A DNA stretch of 64,000 nucleotides from Gracilinanus agilis (taxonomy: Eukaryota). The first letter of the stretch is position 1. The number at the start of each line of letters is the position of its first letter. Below the pieces are notes generated by a model that worked only from the letters and a program-made list of their open reading frames with translations, was not told the origin of the DNA and made no database searches. Position numbers and translations under genes: made by a program. Location of the stretch: assembly GCF_016433145.1 (NCBI RefSeq), contig NC_058131.1, positions 199,638,463 to 199,702,462 of the forward strand, in the 5' to 3' direction. Shown in pieces: positions 15,660 through 62,686 of the stretch.

Positions 15660-16204
15660 ATGTAAAGGGAAAGCCTCCACATAATGAGGTCATTATATCA
15701 AGGATAAGAAATTGAGGTGTGGATGTATACAGGGATTCTAGGATTAAGTGATTTGCAGTATTTTGTTCTTAACCCTAATGTGGGGGGGGAGGGGGAGATG
15801 GGGATCCAGGGTGTCTAAGGTGATATTTCTGACAATTCTAACTTTGGATTGAATAGGGATTGGATAGGAGTATGTCCAACATTTGGTTATTCTATTTTGA
15901 AAGGGAAGGTTTTGATAGGCCCCTTGAAAAAAGGATATAATCTTGGTGAGGTAAGAAATCTCTTAAATAAATATGCAGTTAATTTGAAGCCAAACAGAAT
16001 TCAGAAAGGGTAAATATCCAGTTATATGTATATTTTTATATCTAAGTGGTTAGCTTACTATTAATCCTAAATTTCAGAATTCATTAATGGTTGGAACTAC
16101 TTCTTACTACAAAATCAGATCAGTAACAATTTCTAATCAATAGCTGATCCTAAACTGAATTTATTCACTGTAGTTTATACAAACTATTTTTACTATAAGA
16201 ATAA

Positions 16205-16720
16205 ATGCCAGGCCTAGAGACAGGAGGGTCCTAGGTTCTAATATGGCTTCAGACACTTCCCAACTGTGTGACCCTGGGCAAGTCACTTAACTCCAATTGC
16301 CTAGCCCATACTGCTCTTTTATCATGGAACTGATCAATACTCAGTATCCACTCTAAGACAGAAGGTAAGGGTTTATAAAAAAAAAATAAAATAAGTATTT
16401 GTTAAGTGCCTGCTGTATACCTGGTGCTATGAGTTTAACAATCTCAATAAATGCAAAGGGAAAATTTTCCTAAATAAAGGCCAGTTACTGGGGGACAGCT
16501 GGGTGGCTCTCAGTGGATTGAAAGCCAGGCCTAGAGTCAGGAGGTCTGAAGTTCAAATCTGACCTCAGACACTTCCCAGCTGTGTGACCCTGGGCAAGTC
16601 CCTTAATCCTCATTGCCTAGCCCATACCACTCTTCTGGCTTGGAGCCAATACACAGTATTGACTCCAAGACGGAAGGGTTTAAATTTTAAAAAATTAATA
16701 AAATTAAATTAAAATAAAAA
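16205..16720 (+). mobile_element. Two tandem opossum SINEs (16205-16390, 16490-16720) just beyond the RNase H1-like polyA signal
   Basis: SINE bodies with A-rich tails. Confidence 0.88.
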
Positions 16721-16768
16721 GAATTTAGTAAATGATCACTAAAAAGTCAATAGTCTGGTTGCCTTCCT

Positions 16769-16774
16769 TTTATT
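16769..16774 (-). terminator. Polyadenylation signal AATAAA of the RNase H1-like gene
   Basis: tttatt on + strand, about 160 nt downstream of the TGA stop. Confidence 0.6.
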
Positions 16775-16931
16775 TCAACTATTTAAAAGAAACAAACTAG
16801 CACAGAGAAAAATCTTTTAAGTATATGAAGAAAATGGTCAAAGCTAACCATGGAACAGCTCCAAGACAAGGAAGAAAATCTGGAGATTATATATTGCAGT
16901 TAAATTCAACACCCACAAATACTGAGCCTTC

Positions 16932-17006
16932 TCACTTTCTATAAGCTTCTCTAGCTAATTTGTGAGCTTCAGCATTGCCTCCTTTTGAACGAGCAGGAAC
17001 ATACTT
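16932..17006 (-). CDS. RNase H1-like terminal coding exon: KYVPARSKGGNAEAHKLAREAYRK*
   Basis: Acceptor tttttaacag, 75 bp including TGA. Aligns to [24 protein letters not shown]. Confidence 0.92.
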   Translation of the reverse strand, partial: KYVPARSKGGNAEAHKLAREAYRK

Positions 17007-17452
17007 CTGTTAAAAAAAAAAGTTGAAATTTAATTAATCAAGAAATTTAATTTCAACTATTCCCATACCTGTGTAAGGGAAAAACCTTAATCAGTTAGAA
17101 GGCTTAAACCAGAGGTAGCACTCACAAGACATTTTAGAAATGATCCAAATTCACCTCAATCTACCAATAGGGCATGAATGACTTTATACTAATACATAGG
17201 TTCTCTTTTGTAATGCCAAATGAGATTTTAAAACACTTGTCATGCTTTTGGGATATCCTTTACCCCCCCCCTTTTGTTACGCAATTTTTAAAACTTCCAA
17301 ATTAAAGACCATGTAAAAAGAAGAAAATTATGAATTGTATAGGGTCTACCTCAGTCTTAGGATGAAATGGGTATACAATATCCATTTTACAACAGATGAG
17401 GTTATATTGACTTAAAAGTAAGGTTAAAAATTATCTTTGACTGGATTTTTTG

Positions 17453-17673
17453 GGGGGGTCAGCTAAGTGGCTCAGTGGATTGAGCCAGGAAGACAAGTGA
17501 GGGAAATTCTAGTTTCAAATCTGATCTGTAAGAATTAAAATTTAGTTATTATACAACACTTTTTAGCTGTGTGACCCTGGGAGCAAGTCACTTAAACCCC
17601 CATTGCCTATGCCTTAGAATTAATACACAGTATTGATTCTATGATTGAAGGCAAGGTTTTTAAAAAAAAAAAA
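17453..17673 (+). mobile_element. SINE in the last intron of the RNase H1-like gene
   Basis: SINE head gggggtcagctaagtggctcagtgg with A tail. Confidence 0.8.
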
Positions 17674-17901
17674 ACCTAATTTTTTTAAAATAGCTAGGGT
17701 AAAATTCTTAAACTGGTCATTCCTAAATTTTCAAATTGCAAGATCCTATGATTTCCTGACAAATTTATGCATTGTCTTGAAAGCTTTTCACTATCCTGAG
17801 CCTCAAGCAACTTTAAAGACAGACTACACTTTGAGCTTCAATTTCTAGATGTTACCTTGGCTTGTGTTAGAAGAGGAAATTACAACAAAAAATCTCCTCA
17901 C

Positions 17902-18026
17902 CCAGTCAACATCCATGTCCCGAGTCATTTCATCCAACCTAACAAAGTGGTCTTTGTGGACAACATCCGTATTTCTACTTGTTTTCCAATCATTTTCTTT
18001 CCATTTGTTAATCCATTCATTCATTC
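17902..18026 (-). CDS. RNase H1-like exon equivalent to RNASEH1 exon 7 (basic protrusion): (G)MNEWINKWKENDWKTSRNTDVVHKDHFVRLDEMTRDMDVDW
   Basis: Acceptor aattacacag, donor gtgagg, 125 bp, phase 1 to 0. Aligns to [42 protein letters not shown]. Partly visible in ORF-track entry 17845..18075. Confidence 0.93.
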
Positions 18027-21000
18027 CTGTGTAATTAAAAAGATGTCTTACCTTATTTTTTTTCCAATTTTTCAAGGGAAAATACTATATATATTGCCAT
18101 TATTTATAACAGATTATTGCATTTCCCCCATTCCTCATTTGCTAAAGTATCCCCTTTGGTTATCATTTCATACAGATAAAAGGTATTCATGTTCTACATT
18201 GAACCTTTCCATTTCAAACTTATATCATAATAAATGTTTATCTTATATGGGTAACTTTGGTTTTCTTAGGACTAGAGTCAATCTATGGATCAAGGATATG
18301 TGGATGGGGGTCAATCCAGAGCAGGTAAGTATTTCCTGATACAGGTCCTGGTCCCTTACAAACTTAAGACTAATTCCTAATGGCAAAAGAAATCATTATG
18401 TAGTATATAGGATAGAAGCTTTTCCAATATGTTAAGACCTAGCAAAGAACATTCAATAAAAAATATTTTTTGAAACATTTTTGAAGAGCAAAGACTCTTC
18501 AAAAGTCAAAGCCTTTGGAGAAATCAAGGAGTGAAAACACTATTTGGAATTCAAACCCAGTATTCATTGCATGTAGAAGAGGTAGAACTATACTCTCCAT
18601 TTTAATGATGTAGAACACTAGTTTCAGCAAGGGCAACTAGCTGGTAACTACAAAGAAGGTTAGGACTAGAATACAGAATTCTACTCAGTCCTCAGAACAT
18701 CCTACAAGAGCAACAACTCTTATATATTACTTTTAACACTATTAATACTGAGGGGATCCTCTTTAATTTTTGAAACCTATCCCAGCAGGGGCATAGCTAT
18801 AAGGTTTGGTTATAGAAGGGTTCCCAGCATCAAACTAAGTTGCTCTATCACTGGTTATAGGTATTAGGTAATTTATTTTGGGGCTCCTTGGGCAAAAGAG
18901 GGCCCAGTTTCCAGGGTTGTAGTGAGAATATGCAACTGCTTAGTTCCTTCATTTTGTAAAGAAGGGAAACTGAATGCAAGGTACTAAATGACATCTCAAA
19001 TGTCCCAAAGCACTAAATGACAGAGGTAGAAGTCAAAGCCAACACCTTCCAAACTCATTATTCCTACCCTTGGTACCACACATTGCTACCTAGACATCCC
19101 TGGTTACATGAATGACAATACAAAAGAGAAAATAAATGGGCTAAGAACATATGACAAGCAGTTCAGATGTCCAAGTCACAGAACCAGCCTATTGGTTCCT
19201 CTAAGTCGGACAAGAACTACAGATGGAGGACGTGATAGATGGCAAACAGTAGGTTGATGGAATTACACTTGGGAAAATTTCAGTACATTTAAGGATGTAA
19301 GCTCCTCCATAGGGTGGGACAAATGCCCATAATCACAAATGTTTTCCCAGTAATTTTGTGTGGTTGATCATATGCCAAAAATGTAATAGTGAGGAAAACA
19401 ACAGATAAAGTGTGTGAGAATTTTTTGCAAAATAAAGATATGTTTGGAGTGGGAATCTGGGGAGTAAAGATGCATGCCCATACTCACTGAAATGGACAGA
19501 GTAGACCAGATAGAATGCAGCTTTTATTGCTTGTAGTACAAGGACAGTGACCCAAGGCAATGACAAGATACAATGCTCTTTAAGTCATCACCACCTGTAT
19601 TATATTTTATATTGTCTCTCCTTTTTCCCTACTTCCCCCAAGTTTCCCAGCACTTCCTGAACAAGTGGACTATTTCTCAAATTAGTTCCAGAATATACAG
19701 AAATATTCAATAAGAAACATTTTTTGTCAATGTAAGTCTCTTTACCAAGGAAAGAGTTGACTGTATTTTTCCATTGTAACTTAGGCCTTCAGGTCTTCTA
19801 GAGTCTTTATATCTTTTAACCTGGTTTCTCAGGACTCTTTAAATGTTGATTAAAGGCATTGTCAGGCTCAGTAAGAAATCACAAGGGAAGGGGAGATGTT
19901 ACGGGTAGGTCTTTCCATAAATTTTGTTGAGTGGTGGGGGTCCTGGTTCCATGTCAGCCAAAAAGGTCTTTTATGGCTTTATGACAAAGACAGGATATCT
20001 TTGAACCTCTTTCCTCCTGAAAGGCCTCAACTTCTGGGGTTTCCAGGGATACTGATCTTAAATTACTAATATTGCTCCTATTGCTATGCTAACTAATACA
20101 TTTAGAATATACCACTAATTCTCACTCTACATAACTATATAGGATAAGGCTTTGGAAGGGGCTGCATAGATGAAAAAGTACACTTACAATGATGAACCAT
20201 TTATTGAAGTGTCAAACTTTAGCAAAGCAATTTTTTCACAGCAGTTTAGAACTGCTATTAAAAGATGTGCTTATTGAAGGTGTAGGTGAACCTATTTTTC
20301 ACCTTTCTATTATCCTCCCCTGGCACAATATGAGTGCTACAGGTAACCAAGTGGAAATCAAGACTCAGGTAAGTGACTTGATCAATTTCACTATTCTATA
20401 ATGACAGTCCATTCCAGGGTTCTATCAACCAGTATCAGCCATAAGAAAATCACATTAATATTCAAGAAGGTTGGACCCTTAGAAAATATTCTTATTCCAG
20501 AGAAAGACCCTAGAATCAAGATTTAAAAAGCTGGAAAAAGTCTTAAAGAGGTTGAGTCCAACCCATTCCTCAGACTCACTTGAGTTAAGCAACTTGCCTA
20601 AGAAAAGAGTAGGAAGAACATATTTGAACCAAAGTCTGTAGACTCTAAAATCTATCAAGATCTCAAAGTACTCAAACAACTTCTCATTCTAGCCTGGCAA
20701 GCCTCATTCCCATGCACTCTTAAGTTTCTCATAAGTCTATTATCTTCCCTTTAGCATCTAAAATTTAACCATTAATCTTTCCTTGGGTCTTCCTTGGCTC
20801 TTTTTCATTGCCACTGTACCCTACCCATCCTTCCTTCCTAACCCTGACCATAACAATTTATTTTTTAAATCCTTCCTAAACCAGGGTTATATGCTATCTT
20901 TTCTTTTTGAACTAGAACCTCATTTATGTTGGTATGCCCTGAAACATAGAAAGAGATAAGGAATCTTAAATTCAAATCTCTTCAACTTATCTTCTACCAT

Positions 21001-21276
21001 TCCTCATTTTAACAGATAAGGAAATTGAGACACCAAATAGATGGTGACTTCAATGCCTAACAGCTTTCGGTCAGTAGCAGAAATAGGTCCAGGTCTCCAG
21101 ACATCCCAACCTTCTTGCCCTTCAAAAGAAATGTGATTTAAACTAGATGGTTGTCTTAAGACTTTAGTATTTCTTGTAGTTTTATCCTTTTTGCTAGGCA
21201 TTTTGGACAGTGATGAATTTCTCTTTTCTTCACTTAAATACTATAGTATGCATACCCAAAGTAGTACAAAGCTTAC

Positions 21277-21361
21277 CTTTGGTGACAAGTTGATTATCCG
21301 AGTACACAGTGACTCTTGGAAGGTTTTGGGCCTTAGCTTGCTCAATCCCCTTGGTAGCTGC
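21277..21361 (-). CDS. RNase H1-like exon equivalent to RNASEH1 exon 6: AATKGIEQAKAQNLPRVTVYSDNQLVTK(G)
   Basis: Acceptor attttttaag, donor gtaagc, 85 bp, phase 0 to 1. Aligns to [29 protein letters not shown]. Confidence 0.93.
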
Positions 21362-22740
21362 CTTAAAAAATAATTGTAAAAGGTATGAAATTTCAATTTT
21401 CACCCTTCTAATTTATAAGTAAAAAGGAATTAGGAATGCATATTGAGATACGTCTCAAGCGAGTTAAGACTAGGTACGTCCAAGAACTTTTCTAAGCTCT
21501 TAAATCTGATTCTAGGACAATTAATCCCCAGAAAACCCCTTCCAAGATGGTTGAGGTTATCCTTTATTAAGATGAGGAGTCTTATGCCATCCATACCCCA
21601 CTAATTCTGAAACCTTAAATTGTGAAACCATCAGCTTCCTTCCTCTTTCCCCATCTGTTAAAATGAGAAGAGATAAAATTTGTACAACCAATGACAAGAC
21701 TGTTGTGAATAAGTGAATATAATCATGAATAGGAAGGACCACAGGTGGAAATTACAAGTGGGCAGGTAATTCAAGTCCAATCCTAATAATACACCTTTAA
21801 AATTGCAACATGGAATAGTGTGAAGAAGTAAAGAACAGTGGAGTAGAAGTCAAGTAAGAAATCAAGAATGTTTATGGTTGTTAAAAGAATTGGAGATTTG
21901 AGTTGGAGAAAATCCCTTCCCAGGTTGTCATTAAATCAATAAGCAAAAAGTGCCTCCCCTATTTACTAGACACAATGCCAGGTGTAGTAATACCACAACC
22001 CAACCCTAAGAAGAGAATCCTGGCTCTGGAAGGGACAGGATATTATTCCTTTGGTCCTTCCCCTGCGTTTCACCTCAACCTGCATCACCCAAGAAGGATG
22101 TTCCCTGGTCCCAGCTATTTACATGATGGGATTTGCCAAGGGATCTAGGAATGTGCTAGTTCTTTACATAGTGCAAAGGAAAAAATATTCTGACAGCAAG
22201 TGGGTAATAAGGCATAGAAGAGGCAGAGCAGATGACAGACCAGATGTTTCTCAGCAACTCTAGTGGTGGTTAGAGGCAGACAACTGGAAAAGTCAGAGGG
22301 AAGTGGCAATGGAGATGGTTTGGAGGCTCCACTTGAATAGGGTTTTAGTAGTAGGGAACAGACTCAGTACTTTTAGTTATCCTTTATAATCTTAATTCCC
22401 ATTATTGTTATGCTACATTAACTATATACTTGCTATACACTAGTAGTGGGGTGGTAGGGAAACCTTAATAAGGCAATTTCAATACAAACTTACATGCTAT
22501 CAGAGGAAACATGAATATAGCAAATCAATATAAGGTAATTTGTAATGAGGAGATGTGAATTTAAGCTCTCTCTTCCTATTCCTTGGGATAAGAATTGGAA
22601 GGACATTGTCAATGGGAGGCTGTATGTTTGCAAGTTTTTTCCTTTTCCCTGGGAAGGGAGCAAGACTTTCCAAATATTTATTCCTATTCTTGGTGCCTTT
22701 CCAAATTCCCTAGATATAGAATACTTTAAAATACAAGCAT

Positions 22741-22950
22741 GGGGACAACAGCTAGGTGGCTCAGTGGATTGAGTCAGGTCTAGAGATGGGAGGGAAGTCC
22801 CGAGTTTAAATCTGCCCTAGACACCTTTTTCCTGTGTAATCCTAGCCAAGCCACTTTTAACTCCCATTACCTAGCCCTTACTCCCCACTCCCTCTCTGCC
22901 TTGAAACCAATAATACTGATTTTCCAAGACTGGTTAAGGGCTTAAAAACT
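22741..22950 (+). mobile_element. Intronic SINE
   Basis: SINE head ggggacaacagctaggtggctcagtgg. Confidence 0.8.
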
Positions 22951-23701
22951 TTAAAACCAGTAGGACAAATACACTCATGAATAAATGGCAGCTAGGTGAC
23001 AGTGAATAGAATGATGACCTTAAGAAGACCTTAAGTCATTCAAAAATCCTGCCTCAAGACACTAAAATTGTGAGACCTTGAGCAATCACTGAATCTCAAC
23101 CTCAATTTTCCTCATCCTTAAAATGTGATTAGTACTTATCTTCCACAGTTGTTGTGGGGATCAAAATAAAGACCATGAGCATAAAAAAGCAAATTGCAAT
23201 CCTATACAGAAATGCTGGCTATACATTGAACATTCCCAGACAAAACTTCCAAGACAAGTACACTGTATACAATAACAATCTGCTAAAGCAGGTTATTTTG
23301 GAGTAAACTGGCACCTCAAATCATAGTGCTGTTAACCCTCACAGAGAAAAGAATTTTGAAATCAATTTTTAATATTAAGACCTCACTGTTGTTTTTGCCT
23401 TTTAGATACAAGATAGAAGAAACTGTATAACTTGAAACTTATCAAAGGGAAAATAAAAACCTAAAATGACAAACTTCAGAATCATTTTTCTCTTCTAAAG
23501 ATCAAGACCTATTAAGATTTGGGATTTTGGTTTTAAGATTACTCTATTACAAAAATGAACATGGAAGTATTGAGTGATAATACTCAATAAAATTGCTTGT
23601 CAATCTCGAGGAGGGGAGGAAGAGAACATGAATTATGTAACCATGGAAAAACACTTAAAAAAAGAAATTTTAAAAATAAAAGATCAAGACCTGTAACTTA
23701 C

Positions 23702-23756
23702 TTCTAATGAAGCAGTTTGGTTTGTCTGCCGTCCAGAATATGTACTACTTGTGTTT
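23702..23756 (-). CDS. RNase H1-like exon equivalent to RNASEH1 exon 5: NTSSTYSGRQTNQTASLE
   Basis: Acceptor tttaaacag, donor gtaagt, 55 bp, phase 2 to 0. Contains the GRQTNQ motif of RNase H1. Confidence 0.92.
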
Positions 23757-23981
23757 CTGTTTAAAAAAATAAAAAAACACAAAAGAGCAAGACAGTGCGG
23801 ACTAGAACAATTTGGATTCTATATTGTTTAATAGCCAATACATTGGTTTCATATTTCAAGCTTTACTACTAGGAATCACCCACTCTGTAAAACAATGCAT
23901 ACCAATGGCCCTAGGTATTGTTTTAATAGCTGGCTCTCTTGTATTTGAGTCAATTACTTAGGTATGAGAACTAAATGCTAT

Positions 23982-24186
23982 AGAACAGCTGGGTGACTCT
24001 GGATTGAGAGTCAGGCCTAGAGATGGGAGGTCCTCAGTTCAAATCTGACCTCAGACACTTCCTAGCTGTGTGACCCTGGGCAAGTCATTTAACTCCCATT
24101 GCTTAGCCCTTACTGCTACTTCTGCCTTAGAACCAATACACAGTATTGATTCTAAGATGGAAGGTAAGGGTTTAAAAAAAAAAAAG
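23982..24186 (+). mobile_element. Intronic SINE1_Mdo-like SINE
   Basis: Consensus-like body and A tail. Confidence 0.88.
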
Positions 24187-24287
24187 AAATGCTATTGGTC
24201 TTCCAATTAATTCAACTGTCCTTCATTTTTTCAGTACAATGCACTGAAAAAGGATAATTTTGGAGCTTGCTTCATGACTTGTGTAGG

Positions 24288-24518
24288 AGGGGCCAATTAA
24301 AAGTGGCTCAGTGGATAGGGCCAGACCTGGAGATGAGAGGTCAGGAGTTCAAATTTGATACTCCTTGTGTTTCTGTTTAAAAAAATAAAAAAACAGATAC
24401 TTCCTGCATGTATAAGCGCCCCCTGGGCAAGTCACTTAACCCAGCCATTACCTAGCCCCCTTACCACTCCTTCTAACCATAGTGTTGAATCTAAAACAGA
24501 AACTAAAGGTTTAAAAAA
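24288..24518 (+). mobile_element. Intronic SINE carrying a 32-bp foreign insertion
   Basis: SINE body interrupted at 24364-24395 by an exact copy of 23748-23779. Confidence 0.85.
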
Positions 24519-24533
24519 TGTTTGTGTACTTAC

Positions 24534-24624
24534 AGATCATTGGCTTCTGGCCAGAAGACACCTATACCTCCTCGGGCCCCTTCTCTTCCATTATTTTTGC
24601 AAGCACCCTTGGTATATACAGGGT
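24534..24624 (-). CDS. RNase H1-like exon equivalent to RNASEH1 exon 4: (D)PVYTKGACKNNGREGARGGIGVFWPEAND(L)
   Basis: Acceptor ttttacag, donor gtaagt, 91 bp, phase 1 to phase 2. Aligns to VVVYTDGCCSSNG...RAGIGVYWGPGHPL. An alternative in-frame acceptor (cattgcag) would extend the exon to 24639. Confidence 0.88.
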
Positions 24625-25347
24625 CTGTAAAACATATTTCTGCAATGTATTACTTAAATGAGATTGTGGAAGAAAAGTTAAGTTTTTTTTGTTTGAAATC
24701 TAGCTTTGCATGAGAAGTAACCAAGATTTTTATTCCTTAGAGATTAGGCTAGTTTTAATGCTCCACTCAGGATGCCCAGGTCAGGCTCCCAACCGAAACC
24801 TTCTAGGGATTTAAATATCAAGAGCAAAAAAATGTCCAAAATTCCCGAGGTCTAAATTTTAATCTGTCTTATGGAAACCTCATTAGGTGCCAGCCAGTCA
24901 GGGGATTGCTTCCTGATTCCTTAGCTTGAATCCTAAATATTTGACTCATGGAAGGTTAGTGGGAACCTGTGACCACTGACTCTCCTCCCCACCTTTTGCT
25001 AGACTTAATAAAACTATGAAAGTCTTAAAAACTTAAGAACAAAACTCAGAAGTAAATTTTTACACCCTTTCTGCCACTCCCAAAGATAACGTTGTAGAAT
25101 AAGTGATTTTATGCTCTAAGTCCTTATTTGGGGATAGACTAAATTAAATCCTGGTGGTCCTAAATAGCCCAGAGAGGCTCTTTACATTTTTAAAGGAATC
25201 ATTTTGCAGTGTATTTAAGCTCTGGGGAGGTGGGTGGGGTGGCGATAACCTCCTCCCAAATGAAAATTCAGAGTCAAAGTATGAGTTTTTAGTTTTCTCA
25301 TGAAAAAGGCACTACACACCTGACAATGGGAAAAGTGCTCAACAAGC

Positions 25348-25740
25348 ACCGGGCTTCACAGATGGGGCTTCACGGCGGGGGGTGTGGGGGGTTCTCGCAA
25401 ACCGGCCCGCGGCCGCCCCTCCCCCATGACCACAATTAGGGCGCGTGAGGGGGGGTAACCCGCAGCCGCCTCCTCACAACTCCAAGCCAGAGCCCCAGGA
25501 ATGATGAAAGACGAGATCCAAAGCCGGCCTCTCTCACTAGCAGATAAGTAACCTAAGCTCTTGGGCTTCAAAGTTTCGTCATTGTTACGGGTATACGGAG
25601 GGGAAAAAAATAGTGTCTGACGGGGCGGTAATGAAAGAAACTACCTCGGTTGGGCACTTTGCAAACCTGCAACTGCCGCCTATTTTCTCGTATAGATCCG
25701 AGTTTTCATTGCTTAGAGCAAAGGCAGGGGATGCGGTCCA
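25348..25740 (-). promoter_or_regulatory. Small CpG island, likely promoter of the RNase H1-like gene
   Basis: 24 CpGs counted in ~390 bp of an otherwise CpG-depleted window. GC box GGGGCGG at 25622, two TGACG CRE half-sites, ~0.75 kb upstream of the first identified exon. Confidence 0.7.
25403..25427 (-). CDS. Candidate first coding exon of the RNase H1-like gene (MGEGRPRA + phase 1)
   Basis: Good Kozak context gtggtcATGG inside the CpG island. The phase-1 donor CCG|GTTTGC would join in frame to the exon at 24624, but it is a weak donor. Confidence 0.2.
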
Positions 25741-26444
25741 AGTTAACAAAGTGAATCTGCAAATTTAAAATCTTTAATTGCCTGGACCAGTAAGAGGGCA
25801 AGCTCAGGAGTGTCAAGAGGAAGACAGGGCAGAAAGCCAGTCTTCATTAGAGAAATATCCACTGGCAGTATATGAATCAATGTAGTTTTAAAATTTCGTT
25901 CTAGATCCTATTACTTATGACATATAGGTATATTACACATATGGCTACACATATTTATCTAAGTCATTACACCTTTATCCATTATTAGAACATGCAGGTT
26001 CTTTTTTTTTTTTTTTTTTTAATTAAAATGCTTAGGGGCTTACTATGAGGTGCCTACAGGAGCTTCCAAATTTTGTATTAAGAGATTAGAGGGCTGGAAT
26101 GATCCCCTAACATCTAGTCCCCTTTTTACGGAGGGATGATCCCAGGGTCCTAGACACGAAAACCACTTGCCCAAGGACACTCAAAATTTGTTAAAAGTAG
26201 CAGATCCAGAATCCATATCCTGGGCCTGCCTCTAAATCAAACATGAATATTTAATGTAAGACATAAAATTAAGGATTCCTTATACAAATATACTGCAGGG
26301 AGTAGCTTGGTCAATGAGTCAGTCATTCTAGTCCTTAGAAGAATGAGTATTTTTAAAGAATATACTAAAATTTGCTATTTTGGTTTGTACTTCCCTAGAC
26401 TTGAGTTTGCAATTTCTCCTACTTCCTAAATATTTCTATCTGAT

Positions 26445-26983: not shown

Positions 26984-28200
26984 TGTGGAAGCATCCTTTA
27001 TGGATTTTAAGAAGGGTCATGGCAGACTCCCTACTAAAGTTTCCTAACATTAAATGTGAGCCTAGTGCCCCTTACCCAGAATATAAACAAGCTAAGGCAG
27101 AATGTAACTGCAATGGGTTTAGATTCAAAGGAATTAACTCCCTAACCCAACTGTTGGGCTGTCATTTAACCTTTTTACAATTCAGTGAGTCAATTTTCTG
27201 ATTTTTCTGATTGTTATGTAAAATGGGGCTAGGGATAAGATTAAATGTGGCCTGTTAAGACTCATTCAAGCTTCAAATCTTTACAGACATGACTGGGAAA
27301 AAAGCCTTGTGAGAAAGACAGGGGAGACAGATAAGACTAGGCTTCTGCCTCAACCTCTTTTGGGGGACCCTACTCTAGTTGTCCCGGGACACCCCTCCTC
27401 AATTCTTTTGGGGGCTTACCCGATCCTTGGTGCAGATGCTCATTCCAACCTCCAGAGCCTCTACTCTGCCAGCCATGGCTAGATCTCCCAGAGTCCTGCT
27501 GATAACGATTCCAACTCATTTCTCCAAAGGTTTGGAAAGAAAAAGAGATCCTGACCTTCAGAGTATATGAACTCCCCAGCTGAAAGCCAAGCAGTTTTAA
27601 AAAGCTGAGGAAGATAGTGGGTGGGACTCCAAACTACAACCCAGACTCCACCCCTCCTCCCCTACTCCCACCCCCCAGTTTTTAATCTTTGAAAAAAAGT
27701 TTTTTTTGTAAAACCTTAGTCCAACTCTAAATAAATTGGGTGGCTTGAGGGAATTTGTTTTCCCCTCAGGCCAGTCTTCTTTTACTCTTGGTTTTATAAC
27801 TGCCTATAGGTGCCAATAGCTGCCAATAGCTGCCTATAACTGCCTATAACTGCCTATAACTGTCTATAACTGCCTACAACTGCCATTAGAGAAAGTCCAG
27901 CTGATCACCCTTCAGCTCAGCTCACCAGGCAGAATCAATATATTATATCTATCAATATATTATCTCTTTCTCCCAACCACCAAATAATCACCAACCCCCA
28001 CCACCAGCAACCAAGCCCCAAGGACCAACTACCTCCCAGCCCAAAATGGTCAAAAATGCCCTTCTCAGGGCTCACACTGGCCTTTTATAGCCTCTTCCTA
28101 CCTCACTTCCTGTTTCTCTGGCTTCTACTTCTTTTCACTGTGGGCTGGAATATCTTTACACATCTCTATGATAAAAGGACCTCCAGGACCCCAGTTAAAT
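26984..28200. mobile_element. ERV/LTR-derived segments, mostly minus orientation
   Basis: Two segments end in atctttaca (TGTAAAGAT on minus). Minus-strand TATAAAA near 28083. LTR/leader-like composition. Confidence 0.45.
27796..27885. repeat. Tandem repeat, 9 x 10-bp unit TATAACTGCC
   Basis: Nine consecutive units with few substitutions. Confidence 0.95.
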
Positions 28201-29355
28201 TAGAGAAAAGGTTTAAGAATTCCCTTTTAAAAGTGCTAGAAATTTGTTTTGAACAAAAAGAAAAAAACCTAAACAGTTCCTGTCCTTAAAGAATTGACCA
28301 CATATTGGAGAATACAGCAGGCACACAGATGCAAGATGTTACTTTAATAAATAGGAGGAATAAGAAATAGATGAAAAGGTAAGATCCTGTGGATCTGAAA
28401 TCAGTCTCCTTTGCTAACAAGAGTCATTTCCCCCCATGACATTGTGTGGATAGGGAAATTTTGTCTTCTCTGATTAAAATGGCTCTGGTGACCTAACTTC
28501 AGAGAAGCAAAATCTATATGCCAGTCATTTCCTGCTCCCCCTAAACAAATAACCCAATGGCATCTCTTCTCACTATTTCTGTGAAAGTGGCAATAACGAT
28601 GTGGGGATGTCTGATCAGGATACAGTTTCCCCATCTCTAAATGCCCTGGTACCAAATGACCTGTTGTTATCAGTTGCCCCACTGAGAGGTGCCTATCTTG
28701 AGCATAAATCCTGCAAGGAGTTAATGCCACCTTTCTCCTGAAGAAGCCTCTAAATGTTGCACATGGTTTCAAAGCTATTTCTTGCTCTTATCAGTACTAT
28801 GTCCTGTGCCCTAATAAACAATCCCGACTATGAAAATAACATTCCAAATAGACTTAAGTATCTCCTGTTCTATGAATCATAGCTCCTCCAGACTACTCCC
28901 CCAGGACAGCCCCCTTTCCAATATCCCATGAGTGAACACTATATGGAACCCGAGTTTAGCCTTTCTCCCTGATGAACTCAACTTTGCCTGGGTTCTGACA
29001 TGTGCCTCAATTTTCTCTCATGAAATAAAGGCAACTGCTGTGGAATCTGTTTTTCTCTTTGATTATTTTTTCCAGGGTTTGCAAGTCTTTGTCAATATTT
29101 CCAGGAAGCACAAAGCCCATCTATAAGGACCATAAATCAGAAATGAATAGAGCAAAACCAAGTTGCTTTTGTTGTTTTGGGAATTTTGTACTAATCTATG
29201 ATTTCATTAGGGTAGGGAATTGAGGAAACTCCCCCCAATCCTGAATATCAACATCTCTGCAACTTTATAGGCTTAGATTTGCCCTGGCTCATATAGCTCA
29301 CATTTGCCAAAGAGAGGATTTAAACCCAGGTTCTCCTGACTCTGAGCCTAGCTGC

Positions 29356-55950: not shown

Positions 55951-56130
55951 GTGGTGGCCGTGTCTCCCTTGTCCTAATTAAAGATATGGTCTTTTGTAAC
56001 TGCTTTTGGTGTTTTTCCAGGTTGACAAAAGCAATAATAAACATTTATCTCGCCACAACTCAATGATTCTTGTGGTCTGAGTGAGAATGGAGAGGTGTGA
56101 CTGAAATTTAGGGCTTCGAAAAACTGTTAC

Positions 56131-56234
56131 CTGAGTTCTGAGCTTAATCATGTCAGCTTCCATCTGGGAATTGGATTCATTTAGCTCCTTGATTTCTTCA
56201 TCTAACTGTTTGATTTCTTCATCATTTTCTATAC
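56131..56234 (-). CDS. MYT1L: MYT1L coding exon: (G)[34 protein letters not shown]
   Basis: 104 bp, acceptor catcacag, donor gtaaca. The peptide matches the MYT1L C-terminal coiled coil rather than MYT1 or ST18 as recalled. Confidence 0.97.
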
Positions 56235-56753
56235 CTGTGATGATGAAAAAACAAAAGAGGAATAAATATTTTATTCCATTATCTGGATTACAGGAGTTTC
56301 AAACTGTTAGATTTCCCCACTTTTTTCATGATTAAAATGTATTTCCATGAGTTATACATAAAAATATGATAGGAAGCCCTTGTGAATTCTTGAACCTTTT
56401 GCTTTACCACTTCTATTTCTTCTCGCGAAAACTTTTCCAAATACAAAAATGAATTCAGTTGGGGAGTCATAGGAAATGCAATGCACTGAAAGATAAGATA
56501 AATGAATTCAAAGAAAAATAAATCAAAGACTTGAGGCTTTTTGTTTTTTCCAGATTAGGCAGAATTCATCTATGGCTTGGCAATCTACTTTAATTATTAC
56601 ACACCTATAAAATTAAGGTGCTGGATTTGATTTTCATTATGATTACTTATAGCTCTAAATCTATGATACTCTAATTACAAATATCAAAATTAACCAATGC
56701 AACATACACATGTATTTTGGAGAACAACAATATTTAATTTAAAACAGCTTAAA

Positions 56754-60139: not shown

Positions 60140-60750
60140 AAATTGGAAAGGGCCTGCTTGTACAAAAATATTTAAAGCTGCTCTTTTTGTGTTGGCAAAG
60201 ATTTGGAAAATAAAGGGATGTCCATCAGTTGGGGAATGGCTGAACAAATTGTGGTATATGATGGTGATGGAATACTATTGTGCTGTAAGGAATGATGAAC
60301 AGGGTGATTTCAGAAAAAACAGGAAAGACCTACAATGAACTGATGCACAATGAAATAAGCAGAACCAGGAAAACACTGTACATAGTAACAGCAATATTAT
60401 GGAATGATCAAATGTGATAGACTTAGCTACTATAAGCAATGAAATGATCCAGAACAAATTCCGAGAGACATTTATGAAAAATAATGCTATCCACATCTCC
60501 AGAGAATAAACATTTGGAGTAAGAATATAGGTGAAAGTATGTGATTTTTCACTTGTTTATTTAGGTATATGTTTTGCTTTTATAATATTATTCACTTAAA
60601 AAAATGAACAACATGGAAATGTTTTGCATGAATTGCCAGCTCAGGGAGGGGAGAGGGAAAGAGAGAGGGAGACAATTTGGATCATATAACTCTGGAAAAC
60701 TTATGTGGAAATTTGTTATTGCATATAATTGATAAAAATACAAAATAAAT
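60140..60750 (+). mobile_element. L1 3' fragment
   Basis: gctgctctttttgtgttggcaaag...ggggaatggctgaacaaattgtgg motifs. Confidence 0.85.
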
Positions 60751-62686
60751 CACTGTATATTTTTGACAATATTACAGGTGAAAACAAGCACTACAAGCTC
60801 TAAACTTGAGTTTCCTTTGATTTATAAATTTAGTAACATGTATAGAAGCTTGGAAGTAGAAGAAAATAAGGAAAGAACCTTAGGAACATACAAAGGTAAC
60901 TCAATATCCCTTTGGAACTTCATTAAGTGCTTCCTCCCTTTGGGCACTTGGTGGTGTACCTTCATACCCGCTTTGCTTTCACTGTTGCTTCTTTTGCTTT
61001 TTGGCCCTTGCCTGTTTAATTGCTTTGTTAAATTTGTTGCCTCTCAGCTTTCCCAGGTTCCAGTTCCAGATGATGGCTCCTAAGCAACAAATATACCTCC
61101 AACCTCTGGATGCCATTGATGACCCCTGCCCCACCAAGAACACAAGCCCCTAAGCTCTTCCCTCATCCTGTCCCCTGACGCGTGCCCCTATCTCAGTTTT
61201 GTGTCCTGTGTTATTTGGAGTAGGGAATAATGTGGGCTGAAAGGTCCCACACATCCTGCCAAATACTGTACACAAAAGAACATGGAAACAATACTAGTTG
61301 ATTAGAATGGGGCCACCTTTCATGTAAGACAAATGAGTTGCTTAGATTCACAATTATAAGAACACTCCCCACATCAGTCTTTAGACATAACCTAGGGTCC
61401 TCGGTTGGAGCTGTTTCCTAGTCACACAGGAAACACACACACTCAAACAGGGCTCAATTTCCACACTCATTGCCTGCCTTAGTGTCTGTGCAGAAAAGAG
61501 CAAAACTTGCCCTAAACTTGCCTTGGGATCTCATTTACATTGTGATTTGCTTTCCTCAGGTGACAAATGGTGAACCATGGGTAAAGCCACACAGACAAAT
61601 GAATGCCCTTTTCCTTAGTAGCTAAGCAAGATGAAAGGCAATCCTGAGAACTCCTGCCCACTTTTTACCCTTGCCTTTCTAATCTCTCACTCTACCTTTA
61701 CTTTACCACATCTTTATCCTACCTTACTTATTCACTAGACTAGTTACTCTGTTACTTTTTCAATAAAACTTGTTTCCTCAAAATGAAGTTAATTTGAATC
61801 ATCAATCCATTCTTCGGGTGAGATCCAATAACCTTAACCTCATTATGAGTACATCATATTATCTTTTCTACATCCTTATTCTCTCTATGTGACATATCTG
61901 ACCACTCATGGTTTCACCAGTCCCCTCTACAAATATATCTAATAAGTGATCAGACAGCTTTTAATAGAAGAAAATCACAAACTCTAAAAGGCATTCTTTT
62001 GGAGATCTTTTTAATTCTTAGGAAGTTGTTTTTTGATTTATTTTGTTTTTTACATTAATCCTATATATACCTCTTTGAAACTTCCACTCATTGCTCAGTT
62101 TACCCTGTTGGGCCAAGTCAAGAAGACTAAACCCTATTTGGTATTATCCTTCAAACATATGAGGACAGTTATCGGGGCTCTTGTAAGACTCTTTTTCTCT
62201 AGGCAAAACTTCCCAATTTCCTGATATATATTCACAGTTTGAAATGAACTAATTTTAATTGTACTGACATCAAAGAATGAGGACTCCAGTACCTTTGGTA
62301 GAAAACTTATGAAACATTTATGGAACGACATGGATGTAAGTCACATAGTATGAGAAGCAGTGGCCAGAAGATATATTAATTTCAGGGAAATCACAGATTT
62401 ATATCAGTACTGAAATATGTTTAAATATTAATATTATATCCATAATTATACATTTGGATCAGATGTCATTTTATGTTAATGGTTATATCTTTAGGAAAAC
62501 TTTTAAAGTTACATGGATAGGCTATATTTCACAAATGTGGGCAAAGTTTCAAAGACTTATTAAAGTATTTATTTCAAATTTTCACTAAAAAAATCCTAAC
62601 AAGCATTTTAAAAAACATCATGTTCGTGTGGATATTGTATCCAATAGCATTAACTATCCAAGCCAACAAATATTAGGGAATAAAAA

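What the first reader, a model, noticed from the sequence alone, without database searches (positions are those of the whole stretch)
16932..24639. Hidden intron-containing second RNase H1 gene downstream of MYT1L
Seen: five small minus-strand exons, mostly invisible to the ORF track, splice in frame into an uninterrupted ~143-aa RNase H fold with canonical GT-AG sites, a stop and a polyA signal. Known (recalled): exon sizes 55/85/125 and phases 1-2-0-1-0 match cellular RNASEH1 exons 4-8. RNASEH1 and MYT1L both map to human 2p25.3, and I know of no such gene just downstream of human MYT1L. Inference: this is a DNA-level duplicate of RNASEH1, not a retrocopy or a retroviral RNase H. An intact frame despite heavy divergence suggests purifying selection. 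It was either lost in eutherians or arose in marsupials.
Basis: partly seen in the sequence, partly recalled or inferred. Interest (0 to 1): 0.93.

Follow-up and report, generated by a model that had tools for sequence, protein, structure and literature searches.

The report
Marsupial germline nuclease-dead RNase H1 paralog
Opossums and other marsupials carry a second, spliced copy of the gene for the enzyme that destroys RNA in RNA:DNA hybrids; this copy has swapped out its key cutting residues but kept its hybrid-gripping surface and left dozens of processed copies in the genome, so it likely works in germ cells by holding such hybrids without cutting them, while sloths and elephants keep a version predicted to be active.

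Summary
Six exons give a 176-aa protein identical to RefSeq XP_044515497.1, 'ribonuclease H1-like' of Gracilinanus agilis, so it is annotated, though I found no paper on it. Intron phases match RNASEH1, 2.7 Mb away: a DNA-level duplicate. In 10 of 10 marsupial species the catalytic D145 and E186 are Lys and Ser, D274 is lost and the hybrid-binding domain is absent, while 8 of 10 published substrate contacts are invariant. The genome holds 43 processed copies against 4 of RNASEH1; all cross splice junctions and all are broken, showing long-standing germline transcription. Orthologues with intact catalytic residues occur in sloth, anteater, aardvark, sirenians and elephants; a marsupial-only origin is rejected (AU p=0.014). 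Short relatives in frogs and sturgeon suggest a much older duplication (unproven). Best reading: a likely germline, non-cutting RNA:DNA-hybrid binder. Binding, inactivity and present expression are untested; dN/dS evidence is weak. The scan had not noted this gene; it noted unrelated dead RNase H1 copies in a fungus, a pandoravirus and octopus.

The parts
27420..27575 (-). Exon 1: about 56 nt of 5' UTR and 100 coding nt (ATG at 27519); encodes a 33-residue Gly/Ser/aromatic tail in place of the mitochondrial signal, hybrid-binding domain and linker
   Evidence: Six-exon frame equals P0001; 25 of 43 processed copies begin at 27575-27558 and 2 more run further upstream; residues 1-30 have pLDDT under 50
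24534..24624 (-). Exon 2 (91 nt; like RNASEH1 exon 4); Lys39 at 24608-24610 stands in place of catalytic Asp145
24625..24639 (-).
   Evidence: 1 of 21 scored copies; devil isoform P0108
23702..23756 (-). Exon 3 (55 nt; RNASEH1 exon 5); GRQTNQ substrate-binding motif kept; Ser80 at 23708-23710 in place of catalytic Glu186
21277..21361 (-). Exon 4 (85 nt; RNASEH1 exon 6); Asp104 (= Asp210) kept
17902..18026 (-). Exon 5 (125 nt; RNASEH1 exon 7); Trp221, Trp225, Ser233 equivalents kept; Asn240 is His
16932..17006 (-). Coding part of exon 6 with the stop; His264 is Arg158 and Asp274 is His167
16755..16931 (-). Short 3' UTR with AATAAA at 16769-16774
   Evidence: The 4 copies closest to the gene end in an A-run at about 16755-16759
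15706..16754 (-). Older, longer 3' UTR, now interrupted by two SINE-like repeats (about 16207-16397 and 16489-16700)
   Evidence: Older copies match 16201 down to about 15706
25290..25760 (.). Single-copy CpG-rich patch in intron 1; role unknown, possible second promoter
   Evidence: no processed copy was seen to include it (cover of 3 or more)
27833..28240 (.). About 400-bp interspersed, LTR-like repeat upstream of the main start; possible minor promoter
   Evidence: 1970 first-look candidates in the genome; one copy starts at 28062 inside it, 20-30 nt after a TATA-like CTATAAAAG

Best explanation
This is an intron-containing duplicate of RNASEH1, older than the marsupial-placental split, whose marsupial form has lost its catalytic acids and hybrid-binding domain and likely acts in germ cells as a non-cutting binder of RNA:DNA hybrids. 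Shown: six-exon structure, RNase H1 fold (model), replaced catalytic residues, kept contact residues, repeated copying of its spliced mRNA into the inherited genome, active-type orthologues in Afrotheria and Xenarthra. Inferred: it cannot cleave; the invariant Lys39 would fill the metal site and touch the backbone phosphate; without the hybrid-binding domain it would bind weakly and likely relies on abundance or on its disordered N-terminal tail to dock on partners; it would then mark or shield R-loops or reverse-transcription hybrids from true RNase H1.
For: D145 is K and E186 is S in 10 of 10 marsupial species; D274 is never D; H264 varies freely; D210 kept. D145, E186 and D210 are essential, and E186Q stops cleavage without affecting hybrid binding (PMC5737507, passages). 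Of 10 substrate contacts listed in PMC5363678 (passage), 8 are unchanged in all 10 species and the other two are fixed as N240H and F213L; background retention of RNASEH1-invariant columns is 33 of 70 (binomial p=0.037). Model pLDDT 85, TM 0.80, rmsd 1.6 A to human RNase H1-hybrid complex 2QK9. 45 of 49 examined intronless places derive from this gene and 4 from RNASEH1; 45 of 45 cross at least one junction, 18 all five; 0 of 43 non-twin copies keep an intact frame while the gene's frame is open in 10 species. Copies of all ages show K at position 39 in 28 of 31 readable codons and never Asp. Tree: marsupial plus afrotherian/xenarthran clade 98/94 and 98/91.
Against: No biochemical or expression data; germline expression rests on fossil copies, the closest about 91% identical. 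Contact versus catalytic retention (8/10 against 1/5) is not significant on its own (Fisher p=0.089), and several contact residues (Trp221, Trp225) could be kept for the fold. Deleting the hybrid-binding domain lowers affinity about 9-fold in human RNase H1 (PMC5737507). Two contact residues are changed. dN/dS on the opossum lineage is high: 0.56 in the domain by one count (Fisher p=0.011 against a biased neutral class) and 0.5-1.2 with intervals spanning 1 by another. The N-terminal tail is poorly conserved.
Confidence: 0.55

Rival explanations
1. Protein scaffold: the fold is kept for protein-protein contacts in a germline RNA complex, as with other dead RNase H-fold proteins (Maelstrom, EXD1; recalled), and no longer binds hybrids.
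For: Hybrid-binding domain lost; N240 and F213 changed and fixed; 68 of 142 domain columns invariant among marsupials, many at residues that differ from RNASEH1; disordered aromatic tail.
Against: N151, R179, T181, N182, Q183, W221, W225 and S233 are all invariant, and the domain stays basic (pI 9.4-9.9).
Confidence: 0.2
2. Still a nuclease with altered chemistry (Lys-assisted or one-metal cleavage, or another substrate).
For: Lys39, Ser80 and Asp104 are invariant in 10 of 10 species, so the old active site is under some constraint.
Against: Single changes at D145 or E186 abolish activity in human RNase H1 (PMC5737507); only one of four acids remains; positions 264 and 274 vary.
Confidence: 0.08
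3. Relaxed, nearly functionless gene that is simply well transcribed in testis.
For: High dN/dS with intervals that include 1; long marsupial stem branch (0.38 against 0.07 for RNASEH1); not found in any boreoeutherian.
Against: Open frame and 68 invariant domain columns in 10 species from both American and Australian marsupials, while 43 of 43 neutral copies at 67-91% identity are broken.
Confidence: 0.1
4. Retroviral or retrotransposon RNase H, or a retrocopy that gained introns.
For: Weak Pfam RVT_3 match (E 2e-4), also seen for ordinary short RNase H1 proteins.
Against: Four introns at the same positions and phases as RNASEH1; best matches are cellular RNase H1.
Confidence: 0.01

Closest known systems
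Cellular RNase H1 (RNASEH1; human catalytic domain PDB 2QK9, 6VRD, 8SWC; the genome's own gene at G000:C2:202.37-202.40 Mb)
   Same: Fold, four intron positions and phases, GRQTNQ motif, DNA-channel tryptophans, D210; 48% identity over the domain
   Different: No mitochondrial signal, hybrid-binding domain or linker; D145K, E186S, D274 and H264 lost; CpG-poor start; about ten times more processed copies
Afrotherian/xenarthran 162-aa 'ribonuclease H1-like' (for example XP_049758568.1, XP_037669123.1, XP_007946321.1)
   Same: Sister clade (98/94); no hybrid-binding domain; shared CKNNGR motif; 48-51% identity
   Different: Keep D145, E186, D210 (7 of 7) and D274, H264 (6 of 7; the anteater model is cut short), so predicted to be active; their locus was not checked
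Frog short RNase H1 (Xenopus LOC779807/LOC734386 group) and a sturgeon domain (P0121)
   Same: Second, shorter RNase H1 beside RNASEH1; same chromosome-sized contig as the long gene in Spea and Pelodytes; some lack the hybrid-binding domain
   Different: Catalytic triad intact (10 of 10); most keep the hybrid-binding domain; orthology to the mammal gene is allowed (AU p=0.16, 0.37) but not shown
Engineered dead RNase H1 (E186Q, D210N) used to bind R-loops
   Same: Binds hybrids without cutting, the behaviour predicted here
   Different: Laboratory mutants that usually keep the hybrid-binding domain; here natural, fixed, several changes at once

Membership tests
RNase H1 gene family (by descent) | RNase H fold and sequence match | tested here: met
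   Pfam PF00075 E 4e-26; phmmer to human RNase H1 E 4e-39; model TM 0.80
RNase H1 gene family (by descent) | Intron positions of vertebrate RNASEH1 | tested here: met
   55/85/125 nt, phases 1-2-0-1-0 in both genes
Active RNase H1 enzyme | Catalytic D145, E186, D210 (PMC5737507) and D274 (recalled) | tested here: not met
   K, S, D and H/R/K/Q in 10 of 10 marsupials
Active RNase H1 enzyme | Auxiliary His264 (recalled) | tested here: not met
   R, S, W, G or Y
Active RNase H1 enzyme | N-terminal hybrid-binding domain (PF01693) | tested here: not met
   No match in P0001 or P0108; present in P0019 and P0014
Active RNase H1 enzyme | Phosphate pocket R179/T181/N240 and DNA channel F213/W221/W225 (PMC5363678) | tested here: inconclusive
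   4 of these 6 kept; N240H and F213L fixed
Active RNase H1 enzyme | Cleaves RNA in RNA:DNA hybrids | not testable with these tools
   Needs an assay
Hybrid-binding pseudo-nuclease | Binds hybrids without cleavage | not testable with these tools
   Inferred from residues only
Retrogene or retroviral RNase H | No ancestral introns; reverse transcriptase or integrase frame beside it | tested here: not met
   Five introns, four at ancestral positions
One ancient paralog with frog and sturgeon short forms | One clade | tested here: inconclusive
   Not in the best trees; not rejected (AU 0.16, 0.37)
One ancient paralog with frog and sturgeon short forms | Same PXDN-MYT1L locus in other species | not testable with these tools
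   No other animal genome could be searched

The most novel reading that the evidence does not exclude
Jawed vertebrates have had a second RNase H1 since before fish and tetrapods split; it stayed an active short enzyme in frogs, sturgeon, elephants and sloths, was lost in the ancestor of humans and mice, and in marsupials became a germline pseudo-nuclease that grips RNA:DNA hybrids, a natural dominant-negative RNase H1 that protects or reads R-loops or retroelement reverse-transcription intermediates.
Probability: 0.3. Interest if true: 0.88.

Novelty: new variant of a known kind. Interest (0 to 1): 0.72.

Why it matters
Mammals are usually described with one RNase H1 gene. A second one, kept active-looking in Afrotheria and Xenarthra and fixed as a dead form in all sampled marsupials, gives a natural three-state series (active, dead, apparently absent) for asking what R-loop binding without cleavage does in germ cells. 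Monodelphis is a laboratory animal, so expression, binding and knockout are directly testable. The processed copies also give a dated record of the gene's splicing, start site and poly(A) site.

Tried and rejected
No RNA holder listed for the region (one listed run of unstated kind); no reads were laid, so present-day expression is open. First fold from a 9-row alignment was poor (pLDDT 56) and was replaced by an 85-row one. Residue numbers in the codon table were off by one for two sites and were redone. The first tree held a mis-joined opossum RNASEH1 row and was rebuilt. His codons at position 158 in old copies were not taken as an ancestral His: CAT and TGT are both expected from decay of CGT. 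The N-terminal GW dipeptides were considered as Argonaute hooks (recalled) and dropped: not conserved. No Rfam family in the window. ESM Atlas gave only generic RNase H clusters. A search with the elephant protein showed no third intron-bearing gene among 60 matches. A mammal-wide duplication could not be rejected (AU p=0.061 and 0.052). Two papers sought by id were not held. No complex was predicted: no binding partner is claimed.
Full report
Observation. A search with exon 5 alone returned a 176-aa protein, P0001, named by NCBI 'ribonuclease H1-like' of Gracilinanus agilis, XP_044515497.1, on a contig of the same length as G000:C2.

Setting. The window is G000:C2:199,638,463-199,702,462. Peroxidase-family exons lie at 199.10-199.17 Mb (+) and 199.49 Mb (-), and MYT1-family exons at 199.75-199.95 Mb (-); the names TPO, PXDN and MYT1L are recalled from human gene order. 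The ordinary RNASEH1 lies at 202.37-202.40 Mb, 2.7 Mb away, with exons 131/116/156/100/55/85/125/last and phases 2,1,1,2,0,1,0, a full 286-aa frame and all catalytic residues. The last four introns of the window gene match it in place and phase, so it is a DNA-level duplicate.

Numbered as in human RNase H1 (checked on the 286-aa squirrel protein), D145 is Lys and E186 is Ser in 10 of 10 marsupial species (two opossums, tammar, brushtail possum, wombat, koala, antechinus, devil, dunnart, bilby); D210 is kept; D274 is H, R, K or Q; H264 is R, S, W, G or Y. D145, E186 and D210 are essential, and E186Q abolishes cleavage without affecting hybrid binding (PMC5737507, passages seen); the roles of D274 and H264 are recalled. 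No hybrid-binding domain is found. In contrast N151, R179, T181, N182, Q183, W221, W225 and S233, eight of ten substrate contacts named in PMC5363678 (one passage seen), are unchanged in all ten species, and the other two are fixed (N240H, F213L). Only 33 of 70 columns invariant in RNASEH1 are so kept (p=0.037); the direct contrast with catalytic sites is p=0.089. An AlphaFold2 model (85 rows, pLDDT 85, residues 1-30 under 50) matches human RNase H1-hybrid complexes at TM 0.80, rmsd 1.6 A.

Fossil transcripts. Searches of the own genome gave 39, 79 and 58 matches. I examined 49 places outside the two genes; four weak hits in long, probably retroelement frames and one weak place were left out. 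45 are closer to the window gene and 4 to RNASEH1; both counts are lower bounds, and more searches were aimed at the window gene. All 45 cross at least one exon junction without an intron (23, 31, 36, 42 and 42 of 45 for junctions 1-5; 18 cross all five). After dropping two identical twins, 0 of 43 keep an intact frame. They span 67-91% identity, so copying went on for a long time. 25 begin at 27575-27558, marking the main start, and 2 reach further upstream. The four closest end in an A-run just after the AATAAA; older ones carry a longer 3' UTR. Inherited processed copies need the mRNA in germ cells or early embryos (established knowledge; the passages seen in PMC5470649, did not address copy number against parent expression). 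Position 39 reads Lys in 28 of 31 readable codons and never Asp; position 80 reads Ser in 23 of 38 and never Glu, so the loss predates the copies.

Selection. Parent-lineage changes in the domain give 21 non-synonymous and 13 synonymous (ratio 0.56), against 253 and 56 for private changes in copies (1.56, inflated by the method; Fisher p=0.011); the tail shows no constraint. A pairwise estimate gives 0.5-1.2 by age class with intervals that include 1. The firmer evidence is the open frame and 68 of 142 invariant domain columns in ten species.

History. A profile search found 90 proteins, among them 162-aa 'ribonuclease H1-like' proteins of sloth, anteater, aardvark, dugong and Asian elephant, with manatee and African elephant as cluster members. 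They lack the hybrid-binding domain but keep D145, E186 and D210 (7 of 7). They are sister to the marsupial proteins (98/94 in 42 rows; 98/91 in 46 rows; long unnamed rows and near-duplicates were left out as coded), apart from RNASEH1 of fish, amphibians, reptiles and mammals (99/98; 98/89). A marsupial-only duplication is rejected (AU p=0.014); a mammal-wide one is borderline (0.061, 0.052); one ancient clade with the frog short forms, a sturgeon domain and hagfish is allowed (0.16, 0.37) but not recovered. In Spea and Pelodytes the short and long proteins sit on contigs of equal length. The sturgeon record is flagged unverified. The two named boreoeutherian hits (squirrel, bat) are ordinary RNASEH1, and among 144 further representatives none was a close member of the mammal clade; no monotreme, bird or reptile member was seen. 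These searches are incomplete, so loss in Boreoeutheria is suggested, not shown.

Mechanism. Most likely (0.55) a germline, non-cutting hybrid binder: the substrate groove is kept, the metal site is replaced by a fixed Lys that would touch the backbone, and the tail would dock partners. Rivals: pure scaffold (0.2), near-neutral gene (0.1), altered nuclease (0.08).

Literature. Seven searches aimed at such a gene (listings and abstract starts only, plus passages of PMC12292337) showed no description. The library lacks most subscription papers, and supplements were not read; expression or gene-loss tables there may list it under a LOC number. Earlier scan notes hold nothing on this gene but note unrelated dead RNase H1 copies; I did not test those.

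Verdict. Real, automatically annotated, apparently uncharacterised; a member of the RNase H1 family by descent but not an active RNase H1 by its residues. New variant of a known kind; interest 0.72.

Noticed in passing
L048:4656-5447 (G000:C3:191.04 Mb): Processed copy of RNASEH1 with an open 263-codon frame but D210Y and W221R; dN/dS 0.69 against the parent, close to neutral decay. Monodelphis has a counterpart with the same YTYSM change (P0124, UniRef K7E161), so it may be a kept retrogene.
   Followed up: partly
L050 (G000:C52781): Unplaced contig with RNASEH1 exons 1-4 spliced and then intron 4 sequence, 97-100% identical to the gene: a very young copy of an intron-terminated transcript, or an assembly oddity.
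   Followed up: no
window 27833-28240: LTR-like repeat 260 bp upstream of the main start; one copy (L016) begins inside it at 28062, after a TATA-like motif.
   Followed up: partly
window 25290-25760: Single-copy CpG-rich patch in intron 1.
   Followed up: partly
window 60736-61083: Short env-like remnant, Pfam TLV_coat E 3e-4, below the curated cut-off.
   Followed up: no
window 55978-56298: Coiled-coil coding exon of the MYT1-family gene (name MYT1L recalled).
   Followed up: no
G000:C1:518.4-519.3 Mb: A second MYT1-family plus peroxidasin-like pair; no RNase H match fell between them.
   Followed up: no
P0038, P0040, P0166: Unnamed short RNase H1 proteins, two without a hybrid-binding domain, that group outside vertebrates: loss of that domain seems to recur.
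   Followed up: no
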